Source: a virus (taxonomy: Duplodnaviria; Caudoviricetes). From it: a DNA stretch of 42,147 bases. Below the pieces are notes generated by a model. That model was not told the DNA's origin, ran no database searches, and saw only the letters and a program-made list of their open reading frames with translations. Positions within the stretch are counted from its first letter, which is position 1. Each line of letters opens with the position of its first letter. The position numbers were made by a program, and so were the translations under genes. This document shows positions 155 through 41,694 of the stretch, in pieces. The stretch covers positions 1 to 42,147 of the IMG/VR virus record IMGVR_UViG_3300032272_000030. One strand, 5' to 3'.

Positions 155-318
155 TTCGAGGTATCTCCGCAGCGGGCGTGTACAGGTCCGTCGGAGGACG
201 GGCCGGTGTTGGGGTTCCTGAAGTAGATTGCGTACTGTCCCTTGATGATCGCCTTTCCGCAAGCGCGGCAGGGACTAGGGCAGCCGAGAACGGTTCTGAT
301 CGGGTCGTTGTCGCTCAT
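151..318 (-). CDS. 55-aa putative zinc-finger protein (CxxC...HxxC)
   Basis: Manual translation MSDNDPIRTVLGCPSPCRACGKAIIKGQYAIYFRNPNTGPSSDGPVHARCGDTSK; ATGA overlaps at both ends; too short for the ORF track. Confidence 0.7.
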   Translation of the reverse strand: MSDNDPIRTVLGCPSPCRACGKAIIKGQYAIYFRNPNTGPSSDGPVHARCGDTSK

Positions 319-1934
319 TTCAGATACGTCGCTGCGCTGAGCTTCTGCGGCTCTTGGTTCTGGGCTTCAAGGATCGCCGCGCTGTCTCGTGCGCGGCGCA
401 GGGCTTCCGTGTGGTACGGCACCGCTCGTGAGCGGATCCACCGCATCCGTATCGTATCGGCGCGCTGCCCTTCGCGATGGGTACGACCGATCAACTGCTC
501 GAGCAACTCAGCGTTCGGGCTCGGGCACAGTAGCAGATTTCGGTTGAACTGCTGCAGGTTCATCCCCACACCGCACGACCGCATCGAAGCGGATATTGTT
601 CCCGTACCCGGGTCTTTTTCGATGTGCTGCCCTGCCTGGCTACGGCCGTTCTTGCCGTAGTGCTGCATCAGCTTTCCGAGGCACTCCCCAACCGCGCGGT
701 ACTTGGACCAAACGATCGTGGGGTGCTCAGCAGTCGCGCGGATTGCCTCGGTCATGACCGCGTGATCCAGCCACACCGGGCTCGTTTGGATCTTGAACGA
801 AGGTTTCACGGCCAGCCAATGCGCGGCCTCGCGAGGGTGCGCCGCGGCAACCTGGGACTCGCTGTCCCAGGTATCGTTGTCCTCGTCCTCGAGCACCTCG
901 CGGACAAACCTGCACCAGTCGCGGCGCGCGTTCATCCAGTGCTCGGGAGGTAGAGGATCCCAGCGGTACCAGAAACCCAGCGCCAACTGGCACCGTACGT
1001 CCACCGACTCAGGGGGTGTGAGGGGGGTGCCATCGGGGCGCTCGTCCTGCGCCATGACGTTGCGGATCTCGTCCACACAGACCTCTGGCGCGTCCCAACG
1101 GGAGATCTCAATGGACGCTTTACAGCCGACCGCCTTGGTGCTCACCACGCCCGGGGTGTCACGGATCCACTTGCCAAGTGCGGCGTTCGTGTAATCCCGA
1201 CCGAAGTGTTTTGCCAGCGCACCTACGTCGGTAGGGGCGGACCCGTGATCAGGGTTCAGTGCCTGATCCCAGGTCTTGACCACCTCGATATCGAGAGGGA
1301 GCGGGGAGTTTTTGCCCAGCGCCCACATCGCGAGGTGTCGGTACGACTCAAGTTTCTCCCCTTGTGCGGTGCCTGACAGGCCGCAAAAGACAGTCTCAGG
1401 GGCGGCGCGGATGTAGCGCTCTACTCGTCGGGTGACGGCTGAGCTCCGGAACCTCAGGCGGTGGCACTCGTCAGCGACGATCAGGTCGGGCTTGAAGTTC
1501 GCGAGATCGTCCGCGTGGTGGGGGTGCCCCAAAGTCTCGTACCCCAGCACGTGAGGGACGCGAATCTCCCAGTGCTTCCGCATCTCGTTGATCTCTTCGT
1601 AGGTCCGCTCACGCAGCGCTGATGGGACCATCAGCACCGTCTTGTCCGCCTCGAGGATGGTGGCGAGGAGCAGAGTGATCAACGTCTTGCCCCCGCCCAC
1701 GCGGATCGGGGCGAGTAACCCGCGCTGCTCATACGCCTCCAGTAATGCCCGCGCCTGTGCTTCGCGCAGGGTCATCGTCCCACAGGGCAGTTTCAGCAGC
1801 TCGGTCACCTCGGCCGAGAAGTCTTGGTACTTCCGCCGTTTGAGTTTGACGATCCGCTGCAGATCGGGGGAGTCAACAACCGCCTTCTCCCGGCCCCGTC
1901 GCATCGCGGAGCCCATCGCGCTACCGATACCCAT
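315..1934 (-). CDS. superfamily 2 (SNF2/DEAH-like) helicase
   Basis: Walker A GGGKT, Walker B IVADECH, motif III LSGT, GVGMNLQ and motif VI QLIGRTHREGQ. Confidence 0.9.
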   Translation of the reverse strand: MGIGSAMGSAMRRGREKAVVDSPDLQRIVKLKRRKYQDFSAEVTELLKLPCGTMTLREAQARALLEAYEQRGLLAPIRVGGGKTLITLLLATILEADKTVLMVPSALRERTYEEINEMRKHWEIRVPHVLGYETLGHPHHADDLANFKPDLIVADECHRLRFRSSAVTRRVERYIRAAPETVFCGLSGTAQGEKLESYRHLAMWALGKNSPLPLDIEVVKTWDQALNPDHGSAPTDVGALAKHFGRDYTNAALGKWIRDTPGVVSTKAVGCKASIEISRWDAPEVCVDEIRNVMAQDERPDGTPLTPPESVDVRCQLALGFWYRWDPLPPEHWMNARRDWCRFVREVLEDEDNDTWDSESQVAAAHPREAAHWLAVKPSFKIQTSPVWLDHAVMTEAIRATAEHPTIVWSKYRAVGECLGKLMQHYGKNGRSQAGQHIEKDPGTGTISASMRSCGVGMNLQQFNRNLLLCPSPNAELLEQLIGRTHREGQRADTIRMRWIRSRAVPYHTEALRRARDSAAILEAQNQEPQKLSAATYLK

Positions 1935-2158
1935 CAGGGCGTATTCACTTTGGTCAAGGTGCGGCTGTACACCTCACGCTTCGTTGCCTTCGCTACCCGC
2001 ACAGCTTCGTCGTAGTGTGGCCAATCTGCGGGGTCACCACCTCTTGCCCGCCTAGCCTCGTGCTCGGCGATGGCGACCTGCAACCGGGCTGCGTACCGTG
2101 CGAGCTGTCGGGGGCTCATCGTCAAGATCTCGCTCGCTGTCTTTGTTCTTGGCATCAT
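1934..2158 (-). CDS. small hypothetical protein (about 74 aa, MMPRTKTASEIL...)
   Basis: The stop overlaps the helicase ATG (TGATG). Start placed at the ATG after an A-rich leader, because the longer ORF-track start lies inside the tRNA-like RNA. Confidence 0.6.
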   Translation of the reverse strand: MMPRTKTASEILTMSPRQLARYAARLQVAIAEHEARRARGGDPADWPHYDEAVRVAKATKREVYSRTLTKVNTP

Positions 2159-2167
2159 CTCTCGCTC

Positions 2168-2198
2168 TTTGTTCTTGTTCTTGTTCTTGTTCTTGTTC
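2168..2198. repeat. hexamer microsatellite (AAGAAC) x about 5 on the minus strand; unstructured leader
   Basis: ttgttc repeated directly between the tRNA-like RNA and the next start codon. Confidence 0.85.
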
Positions 2199-2203
2199 TG
2201 GGT

Positions 2204-2299
2204 TGGCCGCGGGTGGGATTTGAACCCACGAACCCTGCCTTGCGGCTGTTGGGTCCCTGCGACAAAACAGGGCGCTTCGACCTCTTGCATACCGCGGCC
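2204..2299 (-). tRNA. non-canonical tRNA-like RNA: 8-bp acceptor stem, 5-bp T stem, 8-nt anticodon loop, long variable arm, no encoded CCA
   Basis: Minus strand reads GGCCGCGG-TA-TGC AAGAGGTCGAA GCG-CCCTG TTTTGTCG CAGGG-ACCCAACAGCC GCAA GGCAGGGTTC-GTGGG TTCAAAT CCCAC-CCGCGGCC-A. It has a canonical T loop and GG in the D loop. Amino-acid identity cannot be assigned. Confidence 0.75.
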
Positions 2300-7328: not shown

Positions 7329-7553
7329 GGGTCTTTGATAATTTCCCTATTGTGTGGCGGGGTGGATCCCGAGCTGGGTTTCTGTAGCGACCGCCGCTCG
7401 AGAATCTGGACCTGCGCGTTTAGAGGCACGCGCGCGTTTCCGCGGCGGAATCTGATTTCAGAATTGCAATTAAATTCTCATTCTGGAATCGCCCTCGAGC
7501 CGAGCTCGGTTTTTGTGCCGAGCTCGGTCATCCGCCGGACCTGTGCGCACAAC

Positions 7554-7601
7554 GCGCAGTGCGGCGGCTGCGCAGTGCGGTGGTTGCGCAGTGCGGTGGT
7601 T
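7554..7601. repeat. three tandem 16-bp repeats GCGCAGTGCGGYGGYT
   Basis: Units at 7554, 7570 and 7586. Confidence 0.9.
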
Positions 7602-7850
7602 GCGCCGCTCGAGATGACCCAGCGCCGCACGAGGTGACCCAGCGCCGCTCGAGATGACCCAGTGCCGCTCGAGATGACCCAGCGCCGCACGAGGTGACCC
7701 AGCGCCGCACGAGGTGACCCAGCGCCGCTCGAGATGACCCAGCGCCGCACGAGGTGACCCAGCGCCGCTCGAGATGACCCAGCGCCGCTCGAGATGACCC
7801 AGCGCCGCACGAGGTGACCCAGCGCCGCTCGAGATGACCCAGCGCCGCAC
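7601..7850. repeat. 12.5 tandem 20-bp repeats in two variants (AGCGCCGCTCGAGATGACCC and AGCGCCGCACGAGGTGACCC); iteron-like
   Basis: Exact 20-bp period with no spacers, in a non-coding region between convergent operons and near an AT-rich tract at about 7449-7489. Confidence 0.95.
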
Positions 7851-7852
7851 GG

Positions 7853-7890
7853 ACGAAAGCCCCGGCCCCGGGAAGGGTCGGGGCTTTCGT
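7853..7890 (-). terminator. long hairpin ending the minus-strand accessory operon (possibly bidirectional)
   Basis: ACGAAAGCCCCGGCCC-cgggaa-GGGTCGGGGCTTTCGT, just past the stop at 7918; shares GCCCCG...CGGGGCTTTCG with the cassette hairpins. Confidence 0.7.
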
Positions 7891-7917
7891 GCACAGCTGA
7901 GTCGGTGCGGCGCAGGT

Positions 7918-8268
7918 CTAGGTCCGTAACCGCTCAAGCGCGGCGCGCAGTTCTGCTACCTCGTTTGCATCGCGGTCGTCTGCGAAAGTCTCCGGGGCGC
8001 ACGTGCAAGGGTCGTTTGCGTTGGGTGTGAGCTGGATGTGCAACCGCTCGCACGTCCCGCACTGCAAGGCCCCGCTGTGGTCGTACCGCACGAGAGCGTG
8101 GTCAAGAGCGACTCCGTACGCTATCGGGCACTCAGGGGCCGCTAGCACCGCGGCCAGTTCTCCCGCGTCGTGCTCGTAAAGATCCACCCGTTCGTACCAG
8201 TCAGATGCCGTGTGCAGTGCTGCGCGCGCGGCGTGAAGTACCTGTTCTGTTTTCGTTTCGGTGGGCAC
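7918..8268 (-). CDS. accessory hypothetical protein (116 aa) with CxxC and CxC motifs
   Basis: GTG start inside the conserved repeat element (VPTETKTEQVL...); contains CGTC and CTC. Confidence 0.6.
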   Translation of the reverse strand: MPTETKTEQVLHAARAALHTASDWYERVDLYEHDAGELAAVLAAPECPIAYGVALDHALVRYDHSGALQCGTCERLHIQLTPNANDPCTCAPETFADDRDANEVAELRAALERLRT

Positions 8269-8304
8269 ACCTCGAGAGCCCCGACCGCGTAAGCGGTACG
8301 GGGC
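8255..8304 (-). promoter_or_regulatory. repeated double-hairpin element, copy 3
   Basis: GCCCCG-T-ACCGC-TTAC-GCGGT-CGGGGC-TCTCGA-GGTG-TGCC-CACC-GAAAC. Confidence 0.8.
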
Positions 8305-8326
8305 GCGCAGGAGTGCGGCGCGGATC

Positions 8327-8764
8327 CTATGCCTGCGCAACCTCACCAGCATCGGTTACGTATAGATACACCTCACCGCAGACCCGCGCGTGTTCTTGTA
8401 GTGCATCCGCGTTCGCTTCGCCATACACCTCACCGCGGTCAAAAAACCCAGCTCCATGGCCGTTGCGTGACAGCCAGAAGTCATGCCCGGCCTGCGCCGC
8501 GTTGCCATATCGAGAGCGGTTTGCGGCGGGGTCGATCAAGCCACTGTGGGCCGTGAGAAACGCGTTGCAATCCGCGCGCATGCTCGCCACAGTACCCGCA
8601 TCGAAGTCGCTCGACCCATAGTTCGCGTCCAACGGCTCACCCCCATAATCGTCCGACTCGTCACTGGTCGACCATAGCGCGCACTCCTGGTAGGCCGCTA
8701 GAAACTCTGGGAGGTACTCGTGCTCGGGGGCGGTTTCGGGGGCGGTTTCGGGTGTGGAGGTCAC
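8327..8764 (-). CDS. acidic accessory protein (145 aa) with a GHDFWLSRNGHGAGFFDR motif
   Basis: GTG start within the repeat element. I recall this motif from uncharacterised phage proteins; function unknown. Confidence 0.75.
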   Translation of the reverse strand: MTSTPETAPETAPEHEYLPEFLAAYQECALWSTSDESDDYGGEPLDANYGSSDFDAGTVASMRADCNAFLTAHSGLIDPAANRSRYGNAAQAGHDFWLSRNGHGAGFFDRGEVYGEANADALQEHARVCGEVYLYVTDAGEVAQA

Positions 8765-8800
8765 GCCCCGAAAGCCCCGACCGCGGGAGCGGTACGGGGC
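8745..8800 (-). promoter_or_regulatory. repeated double-hairpin element, copy 2
   Basis: GCCCCG-T-ACCGC-TCCC-GCGGT-CGGGGC-TTTCGGG-GCGTG-ACCTC-CAC-A-CCCGAAAC. Confidence 0.8.
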
Positions 8801-8819
8801 GGGGCCAAGTGCAGGTTGG

Positions 8820-9476
8820 CTAGTGGTCAAGGTGGCCGATGGCCAGTTCAATGCCACTGGCATCAAGGACGGATTTAGTGAGCGGTTGCGGCCATCCAAG
8901 ATCTTGTGTCCAGACGATGCCGGTCCCTGTAAAGTTGCTCTGGTACGCGTACCCTTCCACAAGATCGGGACCACCCTCCGGCATCTCCTCTGGCCACACA
9001 CCATCTAGAAACGCTGCGAAATCTTCTGAGGTATCGAAACCGTACGCCGCGTGCAAATCTTCCTCGGGCACTGTGGGCAGTTCATCTATCAATGCCTCGT
9101 AAGCGTCGTGCTCTCCTACCGCCGCCACGATACCGGCGACGACGCCAAAGTGACCGCATGCTTCCCAGACAATCCAAAGCGCCTCCCCATAGGCGACAAC
9201 GACGCGAAGGTCTGAATGGCCCTTGTGCATGGTCGCATTGGCGATCTCGGTGCCGTCGCGTAGGCGTAGTTGCGTCTGTCCTTTTTTGCGGGTGGCGCCG
9301 ACCCACGGGCCGGTCTCCACGTGGGAGCCGTTGACGTTGCGCTCGCGCGTACTACCATCGCTGCGCCGGTCGGTGAAACACGCGCAACCGTGCGCCGCAC
9401 GGTTCTCTGTTGCGCCCTTGATTGGGCCGGTGAAAGGGAACGGGCCGAGGGTCTCGATGCTCGTTTCAGTGGGCAC
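8820..9476 (-). CDS. accessory hypothetical protein (218 aa), possibly a fusion of two small domains
   Basis: GTG start within the repeat element. The N-terminal part has NRAAHG...NVNGSHVETGPW; the acidic C-terminal part has EGYAYQSNFTGTGIV. Confidence 0.75.
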   Translation of the reverse strand: MPTETSIETLGPFPFTGPIKGATENRAAHGCACFTDRRSDGSTRERNVNGSHVETGPWVGATRKKGQTQLRLRDGTEIANATMHKGHSDLRVVVAYGEALWIVWEACGHFGVVAGIVAAVGEHDAYEALIDELPTVPEEDLHAAYGFDTSEDFAAFLDGVWPEEMPEGGPDLVEGYAYQSNFTGTGIVWTQDLGWPQPLTKSVLDASGIELAIGHLDH

Positions 9477-9512
9477 ACCTCGAAAGCCCCGACCGCGTGA
9501 GCGGTACGGGGC
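9463..9512 (-). promoter_or_regulatory. repeated double-hairpin element, copy 1
   Basis: GCCCCG-T-ACCGC-TCAC-GCGGT-CGGGGC-TTTCGA-GGTG-TGCC-CACT-GAAAC. Confidence 0.8.
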
Positions 9513-9602
9513 AGGTAGGCCAAGGGGAGCGCGGCCGGTCCTAGCAGGGACCCCCGTGCATGCAGGGAGGTCTGTGCGGTGCCAAGGCGACGCCCGTGGA
9601 AG

Positions 9603-10145
<543 letters not shown>

Positions 10146-11854: not shown

Positions 11855-12355
11855 ATGCGCCTGATCGAGATCCAGCTAGTCGACAATGACGGTAATAAAA
11901 GCGATGTTTGGCTCAACCCAGAGCATATCGTGAGCCTTTCCCAGCGAAGGATCACCCCAAACGTCTGTATTACGCTTGTTCGGGGTAGTTTCGACACCGA
12001 TGAGCCTTTGTGGGATGTTCGGGCCCGTATCCAACGCGCTCTGGGAGGGCTCCCTGAGCCTGAGCCTGAGCCTGAGCCTGCGCCCGTCGAGCCTGCGCTC
12101 ACCCTCGACGACGAACCCGAGCTCACCCTCGATGAACCCGAGCTCACCCTCGACGACGAACCGGAGCTCACCCTCGGCCACGCTGATGTGGCGGATTTCC
12201 TTTCCGCCGAGTCTGAGCCTGAGCCCGCCGAGCCTGAGGAGCCCTGGGTAGCGGATCGCAATGCAGTTCCTGCCAAATATGGACGCCCCTCAAAAATAGC
12301 CTTCGCCACAGGGGCGTGGTGGGGCCGCTACCTCAAGCCGGGGAGGGCGTCCTGA
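11855..12355 (+). CDS. hypothetical protein with an FlbD-like N-terminal domain and acidic Pro/Glu repeats
   Basis: MRLIEI...VWLNPEHIVSL...ITLVRG...EPLWDVRARI resembles FlbD-family small beta domains; PEPEPE and LTLD(D)EPE repeats follow. Confidence 0.6.
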   Translation: MRLIEIQLVDNDGNKSDVWLNPEHIVSLSQRRITPNVCITLVRGSFDTDEPLWDVRARIQRALGGLPEPEPEPEPAPVEPALTLDDEPELTLDEPELTLDDEPELTLGHADVADFLSAESEPEPAEPEEPWVADRNAVPAKYGRPSKIAFATGAWWGRYLKPGRAS

Positions 12356-16361: not shown

Positions 16362-16949
16362 ATGGGCGCTTTGGTCCTACGCGAACCCGATGCGCGAGAG
16401 CGCAAGTGGATCTTGGGGCAGTGGCTAGGGGATGTGCTCCCCAAGTCCGCCCGAGCCACTGGTGCGGGTATTCCCAAAGATGCACAGCGCTCTGGGTTGC
16501 GAGGGCCCGCGGGCTGGGAGCGAGGCGAAGGGTACTGGCGCTCTCCCGATCCCGTAGTGCTGCTGCACCCTCGGCTGTACCGCGAGGCCATGCGAGAGTA
16601 CGTGAAGCGGGCGTTCCAGAGGGCGTCTGTGCTTGTGGCCGAGCTGGCTGTGGTGCCAGGGGAGGCCGTGGGGTGGGTCGTGTTCGAGACCTCCACAGAC
16701 CTTGCGCTGCTCAACATCGACGAGCCCGATGGCGTCACGCACTACGTGAGGGTCCTCGGCCCGGCGCGTCGGCACGGCATCGGCACCCAACTATTGCAGG
16801 CCGCGGGCACAGCGGCTCCTGCCTACCTCACCCCGGCAGGCGCCGGGCTGATCGCTTCGATGGACGCACGGCCTGGCGCCGCTCACACGAGGAGCAGCGA
16901 TGGGCCAAGAGACCGATCCGAAGCAATGGCAGTGGTGGAACGTAGGTAG
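16362..16949 (+). CDS. GNAT-family acetyltransferase-like protein
   Basis: HYVRVLGPARRHGIGTQLL matches acetyl-CoA-binding motif A (R-x-x-G-x-G); AVGWVVF strand upstream. Confidence 0.7.
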   Translation: MGALVLREPDARERKWILGQWLGDVLPKSARATGAGIPKDAQRSGLRGPAGWERGEGYWRSPDPVVLLHPRLYREAMREYVKRAFQRASVLVAELAVVPGEAVGWVVFETSTDLALLNIDEPDGVTHYVRVLGPARRHGIGTQLLQAAGTAAPAYLTPAGAGLIASMDARPGAAHTRSSDGPRDRSEAMAVVERR

Positions 16950-19786: not shown

Positions 19787-21037
19787 ATGACCAGTACAAT
19801 CGCTGACGCGACCGAAATCGCAAAAACCCTGTATCACGGTGTTGTTCCAGAGATCGGTTTCACCGATACGCCCTTTTGGGGGATGTTGCCGAAGAATGAA
19901 AACTTCTTCGGGCTGAACAAGGCGTTCTCAAGCCGCTACACCAAAACCCCGGGCGCCTCCAAGACCTACGCCCGCAGCCGCACCCGAGCAGGGGCGTCGG
20001 CGTTTGGTCGGTGGACCGTCACACGCACCGAGGATTTCGTCACGATGCAAATCGAGGCGCAGATGTACGAGGCGTTGGGCAACGAAGAAGGCGCCCAGAC
20101 CAACTACGTCGAAGAGGAGTCGACGTCGGCGTTTGACCACGCGGTGCAGCGGATCGAGCGGAACCTTTTCCGCAACGCGGGCGGCGCGGTCGCGCGCATC
20201 AGCGACGACGGGGACACCGCTGTTCTCACGGTCACCGATCCCGCCGATCTGGTGGGCTTGGATGTAGGGCAGTATGTCACCACATCCAACACAGACGGCA
20301 CCTCGGGGTCGGATGATGGGTTTCCGCAGGAGATCACAGGGATCGATCGCGTGGCCGGAACCCTCACCACGGACGCCGCCTCGTGGGACGTAGATGGCGG
20401 GTTCAGCGACAATGACTACCTCTTCGTAGACGGTGACTTTGGGCTCGCTTTGTCAGGGCTCGATGCGTGGATCCCCCCGCAGAATCCGACGTCGGCGCTG
20501 TTCTACGGCCAGGATCGGAGCATCGATGTCCAGCGGCTCGGGGGCATCCGCTACACCGCACAGGCCGGCGAACCTGATGGGTCGATCGAGCGCGCGCTCG
20601 TCAACGCGGGCGTGCTGGCGCACAACCTGGGTGGGCGAACGTCGCACATCTTCATGAACACCCTGGACTACGGTGTGTTCCTGAACGACCTAGGCAACCG
20701 GGCGCGCGTGCACATCACCCCGGGCCAGGGGATCGACGGCAAGAAGCTCGAAGTTTCGTACAGTGGGATCAAGGTCCAGCTTGCGAGTGGTACCGCTGTG
20801 GTCTACCCATCGCGACACTGCCAGCGCTACACCGCGTGGCTCCTCGACATGAAGGATCTGCAGTGGTGCGGTCTGGGCAAGACCCCACGGTTCTTCGATC
20901 TCGACGGAGGTAAGTGGTTCCGCATGTCTGCCGACGATGTTCACGGCCTGGAGGCGTACCTGTACTGGTACGGCCAGTTCGTCGTGAAATCGCCCGGTTG
21001 CCACGTCCGGGTTGACCTGACCGAGCTCTTTGAGTAG
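19787..21037 (+). CDS. major capsid protein (HK97 fold inferred)
   Basis: 416 aa following the scaffold; ERNLFRNAGG, LSGLDAWIP and LFYGQDRS motifs; GGAG SD; followed by a GC-rich imperfect hairpin. Confidence 0.85.
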   Translation: MTSTIADATEIAKTLYHGVVPEIGFTDTPFWGMLPKNENFFGLNKAFSSRYTKTPGASKTYARSRTRAGASAFGRWTVTRTEDFVTMQIEAQMYEALGNEEGAQTNYVEEESTSAFDHAVQRIERNLFRNAGGAVARISDDGDTAVLTVTDPADLVGLDVGQYVTTSNTDGTSGSDDGFPQEITGIDRVAGTLTTDAASWDVDGGFSDNDYLFVDGDFGLALSGLDAWIPPQNPTSALFYGQDRSIDVQRLGGIRYTAQAGEPDGSIERALVNAGVLAHNLGGRTSHIFMNTLDYGVFLNDLGNRARVHITPGQGIDGKKLEVSYSGIKVQLASGTAVVYPSRHCQRYTAWLLDMKDLQWCGLGKTPRFFDLDGGKWFRMSADDVHGLEAYLYWYGQFVVKSPGCHVRVDLTELFE

Positions 21038-31499: not shown

Positions 31500-33634
31500 T
31501 GGCACTTTTCAACGTTGGTCCGAACAGGTACCCCGATCTGGAGCCTCCTGCCCCTTTGCCCACGGCATCTGCGCCCGCGCCCGCGCCCGATCCGAACTAC
31601 GATCCCACATCTTTCGGGGACGTGTGGGGTGGGTTTGCGGACGACTTCACCGCAGGGGCGCCCGACCGGTACGTGGCTCCTGTTGAGCCCGAGCCCCCTA
31701 TGGATGTGCTCGAGCAAGCGGATGCCATCCTTGCGAGCCAAGAGGCCGCGATGGCCGGGCCTGGCGGGGTGGCTGAGGCTCCGTTGGCGGGACCCAACGC
31801 CTACGGCATCAATGCCGATCAGATGAGCCGAGACTCCGACGAGTACGCCAAGCTGCGCGCAGAGCTGCTGCAAACCACGTCCGTCACGCGCGACAACCTC
31901 AAGTACCCTTTCGCACAGCGAGATCAACTCGAACTGCAGGGAGGTGCCCCGGCCGCACCGTGGGACGAGTCGATGATCGACACCACGGAGTTTGTTCCGT
32001 ACCGAGCGGACCTGACCGAGCAGGCGGCGATCGAGGCGTACGAACCCCCTGCGCGAGAAGAAGGCGAAACGCTCGAGGACTACCAGCTGCGGCGGACGGC
32101 GGATTTCCAGCTGCACAAAGAGAATGCGCGGTGGGAGGTGATTGCAAACGAGGCAGCACTCACCACCAACATGGCGCATATCGACCGCCAGCGCGCCGCG
32201 TACGAGGCCGAGGTGGAGGCGCGCGCGAACACTGTCGACATCGAGGCTTTCGGGGAGCAGGGTGCGCCCGGTGAGCGCAAGGCGGGATTCATCGCGGAGA
32301 AGGCTCTCATGGCTGGCACCACCGAACAGGCCGAGGCGATCGTCCAGGGTGCGACGGAGGCGGCGCGGATCCACGAGCGCGGCGAGAAGGCGGGCGCTGA
32401 GCAGGTGGAGATCGCTCGCGAGCACCAGCGGGATCAGGACGAGGCGACCACCAAGATCATGGCGGCGCGCAACCGGCTGCAAGAGCAGCGCGAGGCGATG
32501 CCCGCACCTGACGCCAACAGGTTCTTCAACAATCAGACCGGCGGGCAGAAGATCCTTACCCTCATCGGCGCCATTGCAGGGGGGCTGGGCGGATCGCACT
32601 ACACGCTGGATGCCGTCAACGCGATGGCGCAGCGGGACTGGGACGAGCAGGTGGCCAGCCTCAACAAAGTTGAGTCGGATATCCATCTGCTCGACGACGC
32701 GGCCGCGTCTTCGCGAGCGATGTTCTCGGAGCTCCGGCGGTCGGGGTTGGACGTCACGTCCCAGCAGAAGGAATACAAGGCTCAGCTGCTCGACTCGGCC
32801 GCGGCCGCGCTCGAGCGCGAGGTGGCCCGGAGCAACGTAGAGATCGTTCGCGCGCAGCTCACCAAGGACGCTCTCGCGGTACGGGAGGCTGCGGATGACC
32901 TGCGTAATCAGGTGGAGTACACCGCAGCAACCGCTCCTCGCACGATCACCAAGCGCGGTATGGCCGTCTCCGGGGCCGCGCGTAAGCTCAAGATGGAGGA
33001 GCTTGGGCGGCTCGGGAAAGACCAGTCCGGGGCGAAAACTCGCGCACCAGGACTTGCGGTGAAGGATTCTGATTTCGACCTCCGTGTGCGCGAAGAAGCG
33101 CGCAAGACCCAAGAGGGTGCGCACTTGAAGGGTGAGGAGCGGAAGGAGTTTACCGAGCGGCAGGCCGAGCGCGTGATCGGCAACGTTCACAAGCACATCG
33201 CGGTTGTCGACTCTCTAGACAAGTTCTTGCAGAAACACGAGGGTTCCGTCCCCGCGGGGCGTACCTTCGGGACGTACATCTGGACAGAAGAAGGTCGCGA
33301 CGTACGGGACGATCTTCGGCGCATCGCTATCGATATCCTCTATGCCAACTCTGGTGCGGTCATTGGAGAAGACGAGAAGGCCGACCAGGACGCGCTCAAC
33401 AAGGCGGGTTGGGGTACGGAGGAGCTCATGGGCAACCTGATGGCCGAGCGTGAGCGCGCGGCGCGGAAGGTGAACGGGGCGCTCACAGCCGCTAGCGACG
33501 AGGCGATGGAGCACGTGAAGCACAACATCATTCGCACTTTCGGCAAGGATGCCTGGGCACCCTACGCGGTGACAGGGCGCTCGACGAAGGACATCGCCAA
33601 AGAGCTCGGTGCTAAGATCCTGCGCGATGGGTAA
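31499..33634 (+). CDS. internal virion (ejection) protein (711 aa)
   Basis: Long helical/coiled-coil protein with one hydrophobic patch (ILTLIGAIAGGLGG); position after the nozzle. Confidence 0.65.
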   Translation: MALFNVGPNRYPDLEPPAPLPTASAPAPAPDPNYDPTSFGDVWGGFADDFTAGAPDRYVAPVEPEPPMDVLEQADAILASQEAAMAGPGGVAEAPLAGPNAYGINADQMSRDSDEYAKLRAELLQTTSVTRDNLKYPFAQRDQLELQGGAPAAPWDESMIDTTEFVPYRADLTEQAAIEAYEPPAREEGETLEDYQLRRTADFQLHKENARWEVIANEAALTTNMAHIDRQRAAYEAEVEARANTVDIEAFGEQGAPGERKAGFIAEKALMAGTTEQAEAIVQGATEAARIHERGEKAGAEQVEIAREHQRDQDEATTKIMAARNRLQEQREAMPAPDANRFFNNQTGGQKILTLIGAIAGGLGGSHYTLDAVNAMAQRDWDEQVASLNKVESDIHLLDDAAASSRAMFSELRRSGLDVTSQQKEYKAQLLDSAAAALEREVARSNVEIVRAQLTKDALAVREAADDLRNQVEYTAATAPRTITKRGMAVSGAARKLKMEELGRLGKDQSGAKTRAPGLAVKDSDFDLRVREEARKTQEGAHLKGEERKEFTERQAERVIGNVHKHIAVVDSLDKFLQKHEGSVPAGRTFGTYIWTEEGRDVRDDLRRIAIDILYANSGAVIGEDEKADQDALNKAGWGTEELMGNLMAERERAARKVNGALTAASDEAMEHVKHNIIRTFGKDAWAPYAVTGRSTKDIAKELGAKILRDG

Positions 33635-37029: not shown

Positions 37030-37305
37030 TCAAGCCCGCGGGCTGGTCTCGGAGAAGTTTTCATTCTTTGACAACATCCCCCAAAGAGGGTTCTCGTCGT
37101 AGACGAGATCATCGATCCCGCCCGCGTACCAGCGGATGCCGAACACCGATCCCTTGAAGTACGGCACGAACATCCACCCTTGTGGGTAGAGGCGCTTGAG
37201 CATCGCCGTCATATCCTCGAGGCGGTACCGAACGTGCGGATAGAGCCGTCGCTTGCGCCGCTCTCTGGCTCGGCGCAGTCGCTTGCGTGAGGTTTTCGTG
37301 CTCAT
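37030..37305 (-). CDS. 91-aa protein: Arg-rich N-terminus plus a segment homologous to the MCP N-terminus
   Basis: PLWGMLSKNENF versus MCP PFWGMLPKNENF; 35/40 nt identity to 19871-19910; ATGA overlap with VRR-NUC. Confidence 0.7.
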   Translation of the reverse strand: MSTKTSRKRLRRARERRKRRLYPHVRYRLEDMTAMLKRLYPQGWMFVPYFKGSVFGIRWYAGGIDDLVYDENPLWGMLSKNENFSETSPRA

Positions 37306-37703: not shown

Positions 37704-38293
37704 GCGATCACCCGCTCCTCGTACGTGACCACCACACCGGGGATGGTCTCCCCCTCGTCGAGACCCTCCTCGATCGCGGCCATATCGGGTACCAGGTAGC
37801 GGGGAGGTATCAGCGCGGTGTTCTGAATGGCCACGAGGCGGTACCTCCGGGTCTTCGCCTGCACGACGGGCACCGCAAGAGCCTCAACTACCGCAGCTTT
37901 GGCGGCCGCAGGCTCCTCGATCTTCGCAGCCTCCTCGAGCTGCTTTCGCTGCGCCTCCTTTTGCTCCCGCAAATCCTTCTGGATGCGGGCCTTGAGTTCA
38001 TCCTTGAGCGCCTCGTACTTGCGAATCGCCGGATTGAAGAACAGGTCTACCCTCCGGCCCGCCTCCAGCGAGGGTGCCTTGAGGTCCTTGCGGGTCTTGT
38101 CCAGGCCGCGGATCTTCGCCTGCACCACCTTGAGCACCGCAACGGCCTCGTCCGAGGTCTCGATGAGCGCCACCAGCTCCTCAAACTCGTTGGCCGCGGC
38201 GAGGTTCGTAGGGGCGTTGGCCGCGGCGAGGTTGTCTGCAGAGCCGATCAGCTGCTCGATAGGTACGGGGGCGGGGTTTGGTGCGTCGACCAT
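37700..38293 (-). CDS. coiled-coil Gp157/Gam-like protein
   Basis: Long coiled coil followed by LIPPRYLVPDMAAI...IPGV at the C-terminus. Confidence 0.55.
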   Translation of the reverse strand: MVDAPNPAPVPIEQLIGSADNLAAANAPTNLAAANEFEELVALIETSDEAVAVLKVVQAKIRGLDKTRKDLKAPSLEAGRRVDLFFNPAIRKYEALKDELKARIQKDLREQKEAQRKQLEEAAKIEEPAAAKAAVVEALAVPVVQAKTRRYRLVAIQNTALIPPRYLVPDMAAIEEGLDEGETIPGVVVTYEERVIA

Positions 38294-38979
38294 CAGCCCG
38301 CCTCTCCGTTCGCGTCACTCTCGGGGAACACGGTGCCGTAGTTCGGTGCTGGTGTGACGTTGCGTCTGGGACCGAAGCTCCGAGCCCTGCGCAAGATCGC
38401 GATTGAGCGCTGGATATCCGGCATCGCGCGGTGGGGAGACCCTTTGTGCACAGGCCAACCGGCGCCCGGGAACAGTTCGATCGCGGTGCGCGCGTCGAAG
38501 TTTCGGTGCGAGAGGCGCTCGGCGGCGAGCGGCATCCAGTGTTCCAGAAACCCCCGGTCGAAGTGCACGGATTGGCCGAGAAGGGTCGGTTTGACCTCGC
38601 CGAAATTGCGGCCGATCACGAGGCACAGCTCCCCCTCGGTCTCGTCGAGCAGGAATCGCGCGCCGTACAGATGGGGGGTGCTCAGCCGCAAACCCCCGTT
38701 CCAGGGCTCAAGGAGCCCGCTACCCAGGTGCATCTTGCGGACGTACTCGTCGCATCTCTCAAGCTGCAGCGGGCTCGCGTAAACCTGGTGGTGGTACGCG
38801 TAGATCTCCTTGAGATCTTCGGTGAGGACGACGACGGCGATCTCAAGGATCCGATCCTTGCGGGGGTCGAGCCCGGTCGTCTCGATATCGATGGCGATGT
38901 AGTGTGCAGGATCGAGCCCGGCTTTCGGCGCGTCGTGGATCGTGAGGTCGGTCTTGGTCTTGGTCTTGGTTCGTGTCAT
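38293..38979 (-). CDS. orn: oligoribonuclease-like DEDDh 3'-5' exonuclease
   Basis: IDIETTGLD...ILEIAVV, MHLGSGLL, GQSVHFDRGFL, HRNFD and HRAMPDI match Orn family motifs; ATGA overlap at 38979. Confidence 0.85.
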   Translation of the reverse strand: MTRTKTKTKTDLTIHDAPKAGLDPAHYIAIDIETTGLDPRKDRILEIAVVVLTEDLKEIYAYHHQVYASPLQLERCDEYVRKMHLGSGLLEPWNGGLRLSTPHLYGARFLLDETEGELCLVIGRNFGEVKPTLLGQSVHFDRGFLEHWMPLAAERLSHRNFDARTAIELFPGAGWPVHKGSPHRAMPDIQRSIAILRRARSFGPRRNVTPAPNYGTVFPESDANGEAG

Positions 38980-39308
38980 TGACTTTCTCCGTTCAACTTC
39001 TCGCAGTTCGTGAGCTCGATGAACAGCCGTGCGGCCTCTTCGGGCTCCTCTGCTTTGTCCAAGCACCACAGCGGGCCATCGCTTCCGCCGAGCAGCTCAG
39101 GGTCGGCCATGCACTCGACCAGCCAAGCACAACCGCCGCCCTCCTGGTCGTAGCAGGCGTTGTGCTCGGTCTCGCAAACGGGTGCGGCCTCTTCGGGGGA
39201 GGTGCAGCCGAAGAGCGCGAGCACTATCACCAGGAGGGCGGGGATGATTCCGGAGACGCTCACGGTGCGGGCTTGCTCTGGGTCTTGTTCTTGCTCTGGG
39301 TCTTGCAT
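38976..39308 (-). CDS. Cys-rich acidic lipoprotein
   Basis: IIPALLVIVLALFG-C lipobox followed by six more Cys. Confidence 0.7.
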   Translation of the reverse strand: MQDPEQEQDPEQARTVSVSGIIPALLVIVLALFGCTSPEEAAPVCETEHNACYDQEGGGCAWLVECMADPELLGGSDGPLWCLDKAEEPEEAARLFIELTNCEKLNGESQ

Positions 39309-39312
39309 CTGT

Positions 39313-41100
39313 TCAACCTTCTTTCGAGTATCCCGCTCGCAGGATCTTCACGTCTACATCGGACGGCACGTGAAAATGCCAGCTATTCGCAACTTCGTTC
39401 ATTATTTCGACACCGCGGTCGGCGACCGCCTGTGCTTGACCTCTGGGGCACTCGAGCACGTTCTCATCGTGAACGAACAAGGCCTGGCGCGCGCCGTACA
39501 GAGGGGAGTCGGGCTCCGTGTACATCTCCTTGGCGAGCTTCCAGAGCGTCTCCTTTGCGATGTCGGCCTCCATCCCCTGGATCAACTGCAGCGCGATCTC
39601 ACTGTACGAGCACCCCGCCCGCAGGCGGTTGCTGCCCGGCTGCCGGACGCAGCCGTGCTCGCTGGTCTCCGCGAGCCAGTCGAAAAACGCCTGAGGTCTC
39701 CAAGTCTTGAGCCAGCCGTTCTTGTAGGAGATCGCCTGCTCTCGGGTGAGGATAACGCCCGACTGATCGCGCACGTGGGCAATGAACCTATCGATCCCCA
39801 TCGCCCCGATGAATCCGAAGTTGGGGCCCTTTGCCGTCTGGCGATCTGTCCCGAGCACCTCGCCCAGCGTGCCGTGCACGTCCTTCCCCTCGCGGAGCGC
39901 CTTCGCCATCGCGGCGCTGGGAGCGTCCTCGCCGAACATGACCACGAGCAGATGCGCCCAACACTTGAGCTGGCAGCCCGACCAGTCCATCGAGACAAAG
40001 ACGTTCCCGTCGCGGGGGACGAGACACTCGCGGTACCCCCCTTCGCGGGGGAGGTTCATGGTGGAGGGGTCGGTGGCCGAGACGCGCCCTGTTTCGAGTA
40101 GGTGATACCACGGTCGAATCATCGGCCGCATGAACGCATTGCGCATCTTCGTGCGCTCGCGACCCAGACTGGAGTACCGGACCATCCGCATGAGCGGATG
40201 CTCGGGCCCGAGACCGAGCACGACGAAATCATCCTCGGAAAGTCCAAGCCCTCGTTTGGTCTTGCGGGTGACGCCGGCCTCCTTGGCGAGTTTCTGTGCG
40301 ACCTTGATAGAGATCGAGCCGTCCGGTCTCGCGAGAGGTTCCCCGTCGACCGTGAGCTCTTGCAGGCCAGATTTCAAAACCTCCCTGTCGGCGAGCAGGC
40401 GAGCGTCGAGCGCGGCCACCTTCGCAGGGTCGGCGACCACCCCCCACAGTTGCGAGAGGTGGAGCGCCCAGTGCCCGCGCAGCTGTGCGGGCGCGTTCTC
40501 CAAAGGATCGAGCCCCTCTACGCGCACCTGTCGTTGCCGAAGATGGACGTGGAGGGTCGCCTCCGCATCGTTGCTCGCGTAGTCCGCTGCGGCTTGGGGC
40601 CAATCCTCAAGCGGTGTATCGATCAGCTCGACGTACCGCAGGCGCCAAGGGTCTTCTTTGTCGACCTTGATGCCCGAGCGTCGCTCCGCAACCGCGCCGA
40701 GGTTGAACTTGCGGCCTTTGAACTTCGGCCCGGTGAAGCCGTCCGCGATGTCGAGAAGTTTCTCCTCGAGGAGCACATCCGCGACCACCCCGCGCTCGAG
40801 CGCGTCCCACCAGGCGGTCTCGACGGGACCGAGCTCGGTGGGGTCTCGGGGCTCGTACCGTTGCGCGGTAACGATCCCATCGAACGAGCCGTTGGCTGTG
40901 GCGAGCTTCTCCGCAGGTGTCGCGTCCTTGAGGAGCCCACAGATCAGGTCCGGTACGTCTACGTCGTTGTGGTGCAGCAGCGCCGTGGCGATGCCGCCGG
41001 GCTCAGTGGGTTCCTCCCAGGACATCGACGCGCAGACCATGCGAGGGACGGGCTCCAGGTCGGAGACGAGCGAGGTTTCTGTGTCGATTGAAGTGGCCAT
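39313..41100 (-). CDS. polA: family A DNA polymerase with a 3'-5' exonuclease domain (595 aa)
   Basis: ExoI IDTET, ExoII NGSFD, ExoIII YASND; TGRVS..DP...NLPR, motif A MDWSGCQLK, motif B RQTAKGPNFG and motif C FVHDE. Confidence 0.92.
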   Translation of the reverse strand: MATSIDTETSLVSDLEPVPRMVCASMSWEEPTEPGGIATALLHHNDVDVPDLICGLLKDATPAEKLATANGSFDGIVTAQRYEPRDPTELGPVETAWWDALERGVVADVLLEEKLLDIADGFTGPKFKGRKFNLGAVAERRSGIKVDKEDPWRLRYVELIDTPLEDWPQAAADYASNDAEATLHVHLRQRQVRVEGLDPLENAPAQLRGHWALHLSQLWGVVADPAKVAALDARLLADREVLKSGLQELTVDGEPLARPDGSISIKVAQKLAKEAGVTRKTKRGLGLSEDDFVVLGLGPEHPLMRMVRYSSLGRERTKMRNAFMRPMIRPWYHLLETGRVSATDPSTMNLPREGGYRECLVPRDGNVFVSMDWSGCQLKCWAHLLVVMFGEDAPSAAMAKALREGKDVHGTLGEVLGTDRQTAKGPNFGFIGAMGIDRFIAHVRDQSGVILTREQAISYKNGWLKTWRPQAFFDWLAETSEHGCVRQPGSNRLRAGCSYSEIALQLIQGMEADIAKETLWKLAKEMYTEPDSPLYGARQALFVHDENVLECPRGQAQAVADRGVEIMNEVANSWHFHVPSDVDVKILRAGYSKEG

Positions 41101-41163: not shown

Positions 41164-41694
41164 CTAGGCAGCCTTGGGAGTCGTCCAGACGTGGCCCGTG
41201 AACGGGGACTTGTTACGCTGGAACCGCGCCTGGGTGTCGAGGATCATCTCGGTCCCCTCCAGAGGGTTGGCGTCGCTGACGAGGTACTCAAGGAGCTCCT
41301 CAGCCTGGTCGTACAACTCTTTGATCGCGTTCAAGTCCGGTTTCGATTCCGCTTCGAGGTCCGCGATCTTGGAGTAGTGCTCCGCGATGTCGGGGCTCGC
41401 CGCGATAGCGAACTTCTTGACGTCGGTGGCGCCCGGGTTCCCGCCGCCAGCGATCGGCGACATCTTGACGTACCAATCCTTGTCGACCCCCACGGCAGGG
41501 AAGGGCTTGCCTTCCGGGTCCGCCGCCTCCGAGGGGGCTGCGAGGATCTCCAGCACCGTGAACGCCACGATGAAAGCGGGCTTGTCAATGAACTTGCACC
41601 CGAGGATCTTGACGCGGAGCTTTGCGTCGAGCCAGGGCATGTACGACCCGCGCGTTGAGTCCTGCGCGTCTACTACTGAACTAAATCTTCCCAT
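41164..41694 (-). CDS. putative ssDNA-binding (OB-fold-like) replication protein
   Basis: Strong AAAGGA SD; beta-rich; directly upstream of the polymerase. Function is inferred from synteny only. Confidence 0.5.
   Translation of the reverse strand: MGRFSSVVDAQDSTRGSYMPWLDAKLRVKILGCKFIDKPAFIVAFTVLEILAAPSEAADPEGKPFPAVGVDKDWYVKMSPIAGGGNPGATDVKKFAIAASPDIAEHYSKIADLEAESKPDLNAIKELYDQAEELLEYLVSDANPLEGTEMILDTQARFQRNKSPFTGHVWTTPKAA

What the first reader, a model, noticed from the sequence alone, without database searches (positions are those of the whole stretch)
2168..2299. Non-canonical tRNA-like RNA inside the replication operon (8/5 fold, 8-nt anticodon loop, GNRA-capped variable arm)
Seen: all four cloverleaf arms pair and the T loop (TTCAAAT) is canonical. 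However, the acceptor stem has 8 bp, the anticodon loop TTTTGTCG has 8 nt and no purine at the usual position 37, the variable arm is about 25 nt with an internal loop and GCAA tetraloop, and CCA is not encoded. Known: an 8/5 stem is a feature of bacterial tRNA-Sec, an extra G-1:C73 pair marks tRNA-His, and 8-nt loops mark +1 frameshift suppressors. This RNA has neither a UCA nor a GUG anticodon. Inference: the intact stems argue against simple decay. It could be a decoy for tRNA-targeting defences (PrrC/PARIS-type anticodon nucleases), a quadruplet or frameshift reader, or an RNase P/Z punctuation signal that frees the downstream mRNA with its (AAGAAC)n leader.
Basis: partly seen in the sequence, partly recalled or inferred. 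Interest (0 to 1): 0.75.

Follow-up and report, generated by a model that had tools for sequence, protein, structure and literature searches.

The report
Phage tRNA mimic, shortened anticodon loop
This phage carries an intact tRNA-shaped gene whose anticodon arm matches a threonine tRNA but has a loop one base too short, as do similar RNAs in five other phages; it likely cannot decode and would instead act as bait for host enzymes that cut threonine tRNA.

Summary
The RNA is real: minus strand 2299-2204 of a circular 42-kb phage contig, 6 nt after a PD-(D/E)XK nuclease gene and upstream of a helicase. The '8-nt loop' is only one register. The arm is 15/17 identical to a phage tRNA-Thr(UGU), with the same C26 and U31.G39, which favours a 6-nt loop (UUUGUC): one base short, not one long. 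A pattern built from this RNA and one look-alike gave 50 viral hits. Six of them (five phages) have a perfect stem closing AUUGUN; the null mean is 0.16. So a small group of 'hexaloop' tRNA-like RNAs exists. This RNA is probably a diverged member (about 65%; partly circular). The 8-bp stem is a His-like G-1:C73 pair or an added pair, not tRNA-Sec. The quadruplet-reader idea has no support. Best guess: a non-decoding mimic that binds defence nucleases aimed at tRNA-Thr(UGU) (OLD, AriB); it keeps OLD's CUG/CAG motif. Against: C37 instead of A37, published rescue works by replacement, and a rod fold is predicted to be more stable. No reads or expression data were available. The scan's earlier notes hold no look-alike.

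The parts
2204..2299 (-). tRNA-shaped RNA gene, 96 nt: acceptor of 7 bp plus G-1:C73 (or 8 bp plus A73), 3-bp D stem with 11-nt loop holding G18 G19, anticodon arm, extra arm, canonical T arm, no encoded CCA
2255..2272 (-). Anticodon arm: C26 (can pair with G44), 5-bp stem ending in U31.G39, 6-nt loop U32 U33 U34 G35 U36 C37; CUG/CAG at 28-30 and 40-42
   Evidence: 15/17 identical to phage tRNA-Thr(UGU) in L290, best of 345 canonical tRNAs; stem covariation in six elements
2230..2254 (-). 25-nt extra arm (4 bp, 4x1 internal loop, 3 bp, GCAA loop); its 3' side repeats the anticodon stem's 3' strand and can pair with the anticodon 5' strand plus loop
   Evidence: longest extra arm among 157 Leu/Ser/Tyr/Sec calls in my loci is 22 nt
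2169..2198 (-). (AAGAAC)5 A-rich spacer between the RNA and the next likely start codon; one of six hexamer repeats in the genome
2306..3604 (-). Upstream gene: PD-(D/E)XK exonuclease with a low-complexity tail; its stop codon is 6 nt before the RNA
1934..2158 (-). Downstream small ORF without a family hit (start codon inferred)
315..1934 (-). Superfamily-2 helicase gene, used to fetch related phages

Best explanation
The gene has an intact tRNA body and a threonine(UGU)-type anticodon arm whose loop is one base short; it is likely cut out of the replication transcript by host tRNA-processing enzymes, likely does not decode, and would act as bait that ties up host defence nucleases aimed at tRNA-Thr(UGU). 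Shown: the anatomy, the Thr(UGU)-like arm, the retained CUG/CAG stem motif, and the recurrence of a hexaloop arm in five other phages. Inferred: expression and processing by RNase P/Z plus CCA addition (general knowledge, recalled); exclusion from decoding; membership of the hexaloop group (about 0.65); binding to an OLD- or AriB-like Toprim nuclease. I put 'maintained, non-decoding Thr(UGU)-derived mimic' at about 0.6 and the bait role within it at about 0.35.
For: The arm is 15/17 identical to a phage tRNA-Thr(UGU) that was retrieved through a match in its acceptor/D region, not its arm (L290). Thr(UGU) is the top isotype by mean identity for 4 of the 6 arms and second for the other 2. 6 of 50 viral pattern hits (5 phages) have a perfect 5-bp stem and A at the first loop position, which the pattern did not ask for; the null mean is 0.16, maximum 3 in 5000 draws, and A32 occurs in 4 of 345 canonical tRNAs. 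The stem covaries (C-G/U-A/U.G at 29:41, C-G/G-C at 26:44). Three of the six elements lie in a helicase module: this one, L066 and L514. Features against decoding: 6-nt loop, C37, a 25-nt extra arm, and a 13-bp acceptor domain; an 8-bp acceptor lowers EF-Tu affinity for tRNA-Sec 100-fold (PMC7609411, passages). tRNA-Thr(UGU) is the preferred target of P2-OLD, which cuts paired CNG motifs at 28-30/40-42 (CUG in E. coli ThrU; PMC12445682), and a prime target of AriB. This RNA has CUG/CAG there.
Against: P2-OLD substrates have an invariant A37; this RNA has C37. In that paper phage tRNAs rescued by resisting cleavage and replacing the host tRNA, not by competitive inhibition, and extra host ThrU gave little protection. 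The CNG motif is common (119 of 345 canonical tRNAs) and was fixed by my pattern in four of the five other phages. This RNA differs from the group at U31 and U32 (others C31, A32) and has a class II body; it is closer to the canonical L290 arm (15/17) than to group members (13/17 by eye). L066's 31 bits against model R1 is within the range of ordinary tRNAs (34.6 bits). The predicted fold favours a rod that hides the loop (P 0.88; hairpin 0.08). No close homolog was found, and there is no expression evidence.
Confidence: 0.35

Rival explanations
1. A relic: a once ordinary phage tRNA (Thr-type arm on a Leu/Ser-type body) that lost decoding and is drifting; the likeness to the other hexaloop RNAs is convergent, and the extra arm grew by local duplication.
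For: There is no close homolog at the same position in 165 helicase-related loci. Related phages carry other tRNA-shaped RNAs with broken arms: no arm in L465, L467, L567; a 6-nt loop of other sequence in L468; a short arm in L472. One group member (L521) has lost its D and acceptor arms. The extra arm repeats the anticodon stem's 3' strand.
Against: No stem mismatch and no lost invariant base outside the loop. Random one-base deletions from Thr(UGU) genes should keep C32/U32; the five other phages all have A32.
Confidence: 0.25
2. An mRNA-processing signal: RNase P and RNase Z cut at the tRNA fold and release the downstream ORF-helicase message with an A-rich leader; the anticodon loop does not matter.
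For: It sits 6 nt after one gene and 45 nt before the next start. Acceptor, D and T arms are intact in it and in the armless RNAs of related phages. Both predicted folds keep the acceptor and T arms.
Against: This does not explain a conserved loop sequence in five other phages. One member opens a tRNA cluster rather than separating genes (L496/L505). An A-rich leader with a similar motif also precedes gene 41164-41694, with no tRNA.
Confidence: 0.15
3. A cleavage-resistant replacement tRNA-Thr: U31.G39 opens to give an 8-nt loop with the extra base on the 5' side, so UGU still reads ACA in triplets, as the yeast mitochondrial 8-nt-loop tRNA-Thr1 reads triplets.
For: UGU stays at 34-36 in both registers (sequence). 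Published phage tRNA-Thr(UGU) variants rescue P2-OLD and PARIS by replacement. C37 removes the A37 shared by OLD substrates. No canonical Thr(UGU) gene was found in this genome or in the five other records, all incomplete.
Against: C37, a 25-nt extra arm and a -1:73 pair. G-1 cut threonylation 150-fold for the yeast mitochondrial ThrRS (PMC3113583). The other members close the loop with C-G (P 0.95-1.0 in 4 of 5). ACA is not enriched: 80 of 685 Thr codons.
Confidence: 0.1
4. A His-charged, non-decoding mimic: G-1:C73 makes it a HisRS substrate, like the G-1 'tRNA1' species with a Thr anticodon in Mukai et al. 2017.
For: Of 120 genomic tRNAs with the same T arm and acceptor 3' strand, 6 have C73: two are called His, three show a GTG anticodon before an intron (by eye), one is unresolved. 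One His gene begins with the same ten bases (L446). G-1 tRNA1 species were histidylated but not used in translation (PMC5389517).
Against: The -1:73 position is G.U, A-U, U.G or unpaired in four other members, so the G:C identity is not conserved. An upstream G pairing with C73 can be chance.
Confidence: 0.08
5. A frameshift or quadruplet reader.
For: An 8-nt loop can be drawn at equal energy.
Against: The group has a 6-nt loop closed by C-G. None of the 489 relative ORFs with a hit on the window matched two adjacent frames (replication genes only, structural genes not covered). Natural odd-loop tRNAs are mostly not known to shift frame (PMC5009743, passage).
Confidence: 0.04
6. An assembly error in the T run hides an ordinary tRNA.
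For: The contigs laid from the one holder run do not cover the RNA, so the loop is unverified.
Against: Neither adding nor removing a T gives a purine at 37 (sequence). The extra arm and acceptor would stay odd. The adjoining contig has depth about 80 with no differences.
Confidence: 0.03

Closest known systems
Phage tRNA-Thr(UGU) genes (L290 in IMG/VR; Thermus phage TMA, AP011617.1), including the nuclease-resistant variants that rescue P2-OLD and PARIS (PMC12445682; 10.1101/2025.02.04.636281)
   Same: Anticodon stem, U33-U34-G35-U36, C26 and U31.G39 as in L290; T arm identical to the TMA gene
   Different: 6-nt loop, C37, class II D arm and 25-nt extra arm, extra -1:73 pair; keeps the CNG motif that resistant variants alter
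G-1 'tRNA1' species and allo-tRNAs of Mukai et al. 2017 (PMC5389517)
   Same: Irregular tRNA with G-1:C73 and a Thr-type anticodon; proposed to be non-translating
   Different: Those have 8/4 or 9/3 branches or E-loops, allo-tRNAs have a long D stem with a tetraloop, and they occur in polycistrons near toxin-antitoxin genes. This RNA has a 5-bp T stem, an ordinary D arm and stands alone. No similar sequence among the 30-odd supplement rows I saw
Bacterial tRNA-Sec (8/5)
   Same: 13-bp acceptor domain and a long extra arm
   Different: No UCA, no long D stem with a 4-nt loop, N73 is C or A; Rfam kept tRNA (RF00005) as the best clan match
Yeast mitochondrial tRNA-Thr1 with an 8-nt loop (PMC3113583)
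   Same: Odd loop size, His-like acceptor history, Thr link
   Different: It has an enlarged loop, lacks G-1 and decodes; here the loop is better read as shortened

Membership tests
tRNA fold (RF00005) | Acceptor, D, anticodon and T arms with invariant bases; score over the gathering cut-off | tested here: met
   38.7 bits vs 29
Canonical elongator tRNA-Thr(UGU) | 7-nt anticodon loop with purine 37 | tested here: not met
   6-nt (or 8-nt) loop, C37; 340 of 345 canonical tRNAs have R37
Canonical elongator tRNA-Thr(UGU) | UGU at 34-36 after U33, and C2:G71 (identity rule recalled) | tested here: met
   Sequence, in the 7-bp frame; arm nearest to Thr(UGU)
Canonical elongator tRNA-Thr(UGU) | Threonylated and decodes ACA | not testable with these tools
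   needs assays
tRNA-His | G-1:C73 | tested here: inconclusive
   Present in DNA; the mature 5' end is unknown; C73 hits in genomes were His where resolved
tRNA-His | GUG anticodon, short variable loop | tested here: not met
tRNA-Sec | UCA anticodon, long D stem with 4-nt loop, G73 | tested here: not met
allo-tRNA (8/4, 9/3) | 4- or 3-bp T stem, long D stem with tetraloop | tested here: not met
   5-bp T stem, 3-bp D stem with 11-nt loop; definition from PMC5389517
+1 frameshift suppressor | 8-nt loop on a normal stem, and a gene that needs the shift | tested here: inconclusive
   8-nt register needs no base 26; no junction in replication genes; structural genes untested
P2-OLD substrate | Paired CNG at 28-30/40-42 | tested here: met
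   CUG/CAG; motif from PMC12445682; base rate 119 of 345
P2-OLD substrate | A37 | tested here: not met
   C37
Hexaloop phage tRNA-like group (defined here) | CCYGY stem closing a 6-nt NUUGUN loop in a cloverleaf | tested here: met
   partly circular, since the pattern came from this RNA and L066
Hexaloop phage tRNA-like group (defined here) | C31-G39 and A32 | tested here: not met
   U31.G39 and U32 here; C-G and A in all five other phages
Archaeal intron-containing pre-tRNA | Bulge-helix-bulge motif in the rod fold | tested here: not met
   By eye on the fold: the 12 pairs run without a 3-nt bulge; the phage has a Peptidase M15 endolysin

The most novel reading that the evidence does not exclude
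Phages encode a so far undescribed class of tRNA mimics whose functional module is a tRNA-Thr(UGU)-derived arm contracted to a six-base loop, mounted on different tRNA bodies, which works as an RNA sponge against tRNA-cutting Toprim defences (OLD, PARIS) rather than as a replacement tRNA; the two members with long extra arms (this one and L500) may also switch to a rod fold that hides the loop.
Probability: 0.25. Interest if true: 0.8.

Novelty: new variant of a known kind. Interest (0 to 1): 0.5.

Why it matters
Phage tRNAs are known to beat tRNA-cutting defences by replacing the cut tRNA; the P2-OLD paper found no competitive inhibition and names dedicated inhibitors only as a possibility. 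A recurring tRNA mimic that keeps the cut motif but loses a decodable loop would be a second, RNA-based route. It is cheap to test with existing E. coli OLD and PARIS assays. Even if the bait role is wrong, a conserved six-base anticodon loop in several unrelated phages shows that some 'undetermined' or 'pseudo' tRNA calls hide a maintained RNA class. If the RNA is a lone relic, it matters little.

Tried and rejected
No own genome is held. No RNA holder listed; one DNA run, whose contigs leave a hole over the RNA. Exact or loop-anchored patterns in viral contigs: 0 hits; 55 hits, none with this build; 119 hits from 24 of 64 parts, none with this build. nhmmer on 160 loci: nothing. Model R1 on 86 sources: no non-self hit under E 0.7. 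Model R2 on 85 whole viral records: no new member; R2's D stem was set one column off for L066. Group pattern in GTDB genomes: 2 of 93 and 11 of 401 genomes, against 1 and 12 matches of the reversed control; none is a cloverleaf by eye. blastn in annotated phages and plasmids: only ordinary tRNAs and odd-loop genes of other sequence. The closest helicase relatives (60-61% identity) could not be fetched. attP remnant: no integrase hit among 46 ORFs, and the gene is whole. Second anticodon loop in the extra arm, as in earlier scan notes: it is a GCAA tetraloop. Bacterial Y RNA: no Rfam hit, and the arm order differs (recalled). Asp or His ancestry of the arm: nearest blast hits of L505 are Asp genes, but arm identity favours Thr(UGU) (only 3 Asp genes in that set). 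TGT or colicin E5 bait (UGU/YGUN rule recalled): not tested. Promoter/terminator scan: at chance level. One search used wrong columns and was redone. The reading frame open through the RNA (1934-2290) has no support and is expected by chance at 64% GC.

Full report
Setting. The window is a circular phage contig (127-nt terminal repeat; 64% GC) with polA, helicase, PD-(D/E)XK nuclease, primase, a Peptidase M15 endolysin and SU10-type virion proteins. No integrase or tRNA-handling enzyme was hit among 46 ORFs scanned. The one public holder is a sediment metagenome. The host is unknown.

Observation. One tRNA-like gene is found, on the minus strand at 2299-2204. It starts 6 nt after the nuclease stop codon and ends 45 nt before the next likely start, with (AAGAAC)5 in between. 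All stems pair and the invariant bases are present. With C26, a U31.G39 pair closes a 6-nt loop; the two cloverleaves differ by 0.2 kcal/mol. A third fold, a 12-pair rod between the anticodon 5' strand plus loop and the 3' side of the extra arm, is predicted to be 3 kcal/mol lower; such predictions ignore tertiary contacts and modifications. The contigs of the holder run do not cover the RNA, so the loop is unverified, but no one-base change of the T run gives a purine at 37.

What the parts resemble. A scan of GTDB contigs for the T arm plus acceptor 3' strand returned 120 hits (12 of 64 parts scanned). 91 are Leu genes; 6 have C73, and where resolved these are His genes. So the eighth pair reads as a His-like G-1:C73 or an added pair, not as tRNA-Sec. 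The anticodon arm tells another story. Against 345 distinct canonical tRNAs in my loci, allowing one loop deletion, the best match is a phage tRNA-Thr(UGU) (L290, 15 of 17), with the same C26 and U31.G39, and Thr(UGU) is the top isotype (the set is uneven, with 6 Thr(UGU) and 3 Asp genes). L290 was retrieved through its acceptor/D region, so this match is not an effect of the search. The loop is thus U32 U33 U34 G35 U36 C37: one base short.

Relatives. Helicase relatives gave 165 loci at 25-40% identity (best 80 of 266, best 80 of 448, and 5; the first two scans were partial). None has a close homolog. The best non-self hit of a one-sequence model was L066 (31 bits, E 0.001), a cloverleaf with a 6-nt loop in the helicase-polA operon of a related phage. 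That score alone proves little, as ordinary tRNAs reach 34.6 bits. A pattern from the features shared by the two gave 50 viral hits. Six of them, from five phages (L066, L496=L505, L500, L514, L521), have a perfect 5-bp stem and A at the first loop position, neither of which the pattern fixed. Random flanks give 0.70 perfect stems and 0.16 with A, at most 3 in 5000 draws; A32 is found in 4 of 345 canonical tRNAs. The stem covaries (7 of 500 shuffles as high; six sequences only). Bodies differ: class I (L066, L505, L514), Leu-type D arm with a ~49-nt extra arm (L500), D and acceptor arms lost (L521). An extra -1:73 pair can form in L066, L514 and L500 but not L505. L514 lies just after an SNF2 helicase gene and before a VRR-NUC gene; L505 opens a tRNA cluster; L500 and L521 have other neighbours. 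No further member was found in 85 related viral records, 494 GTDB genomes, or the annotated phage and plasmid sets (see Tried and rejected). This RNA departs from the group at U31 and U32; I put its membership at about 0.65.

Mechanism. Processing by RNase P/Z and CCA addition is expected for any such fold (recalled). Decoding is unlikely: 6-nt loop, C37, an extra arm longer than any of 157 Leu/Ser/Tyr/Sec calls, and a 13-bp acceptor domain, which weakens EF-Tu binding in tRNA-Sec (PMC7609411). ACA is not enriched (80 of 685 Thr codons in 24 genes), and no frameshift junction was seen in the replication genes. A conserved loop implies recognition by a protein. tRNA-Thr(UGU) is the preferred target of P2-OLD, which cuts paired CNG motifs at 28-30/40-42 (PMC12445682), and a prime target of AriB (10.1101/2025.02.04.636281). 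This RNA keeps CUG/CAG there, whereas resistant phage tRNAs alter it. I therefore favour a bait, at 0.35. Against it: OLD substrates have A37, the motif is common (119 of 345), the published rescue is by replacement, and the rod fold would hide the arm. Relic (0.25), processing signal (0.15), resistant replacement (0.10), His-charged mimic (0.08), frameshift reader (0.04) and error (0.03) are the rivals.

Novelty. Ten literature searches found no description of phage tRNA-like RNAs with a conserved 6-nt loop; the exact phrases gave nothing, and the library lacks most subscription papers. What I saw: PMC5389517, parts 2-3 of 5 and searched supplement rows (its structure figures are not held); PMC12445682, abstract, Results parts 3-4 of 4 and Discussion (supplements not read, and its phage tRNA library could hold such RNAs); passages only of 10.1101/2025.02.04.636281, PMC5009743, PMC9897764, PMC3113583, PMC7609411 and PMC10954879. 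The scan's earlier notes show other odd phage tRNAs but no look-alike of this RNA or of L066.

Verdict. A real, intact, non-canonical phage tRNA gene with a Thr(UGU)-type arm contracted by one base, probably part of a small undescribed group. The function is inferred, not shown. New variant of a known kind; interest 0.5.

Noticed in passing
L465 (G032:38250-38313), L467 (G029:43461-43519), L567 (G034:5591-5647): tRNA-shaped RNAs with intact acceptor, D and T arms but no anticodon arm in three related phages; L465 and L467 are clearly homologous.
   Followed up: partly
L500:1467-1586: Hexaloop element with a ~49-nt extra arm holding a second T-loop-like hairpin; its 3' end is a perfect 10-base complement of the anticodon 5' strand plus loop, like the rod fold of the window RNA.
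   Followed up: partly
L530:486-559 (Xanthomonas phage X1, OQ427096.1), L265, L468, L514:1267-1356, L532:354-439: Other tRNA-shaped genes with 6-nt loops of different sequence, two annotated 'tRNA-OTHER'; 12 of 359 distinct ARAGORN calls had 6-nt loops, some of them junk.
   Followed up: partly
L236, L247, L250, L301, L313, L317, L330, L334: A recurring viral RNA with a T-arm-like hairpin and a conserved upstream stem-loop, not called as tRNA.
   Followed up: no
window 7542-7901: Array of about 18 tandem 20-nt repeats in the gap after the primase module, possibly a replication origin.
   Followed up: no
window 8253-8311, 8749-8807, 9461-9519: Three copies of a 59-nt element with an inverted repeat, each beside a gene boundary in the small-gene region; possibly promoters or operators.
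   Followed up: no
window 19864-19910 and 37050-37096: 47-nt inverted repeat (83% complementary) 17 kb apart.
   Followed up: no
window 2169-2198, 2727-2744, 9752-9853, 12053-12076, 31571-31588, 38950-38967: Six hexamer microsatellites, the longest with 17 copies inside an ORF (NDND run).
   Followed up: partly
window 38293-41100: polA lacks its proofreading domain, and a separate exonuclease gene follows after one intervening ORF; the L066 polA has both domains in one chain.
   Followed up: no
window 16362-16949: GNAT acetyltransferase gene between terminase and portal.
   Followed up: no
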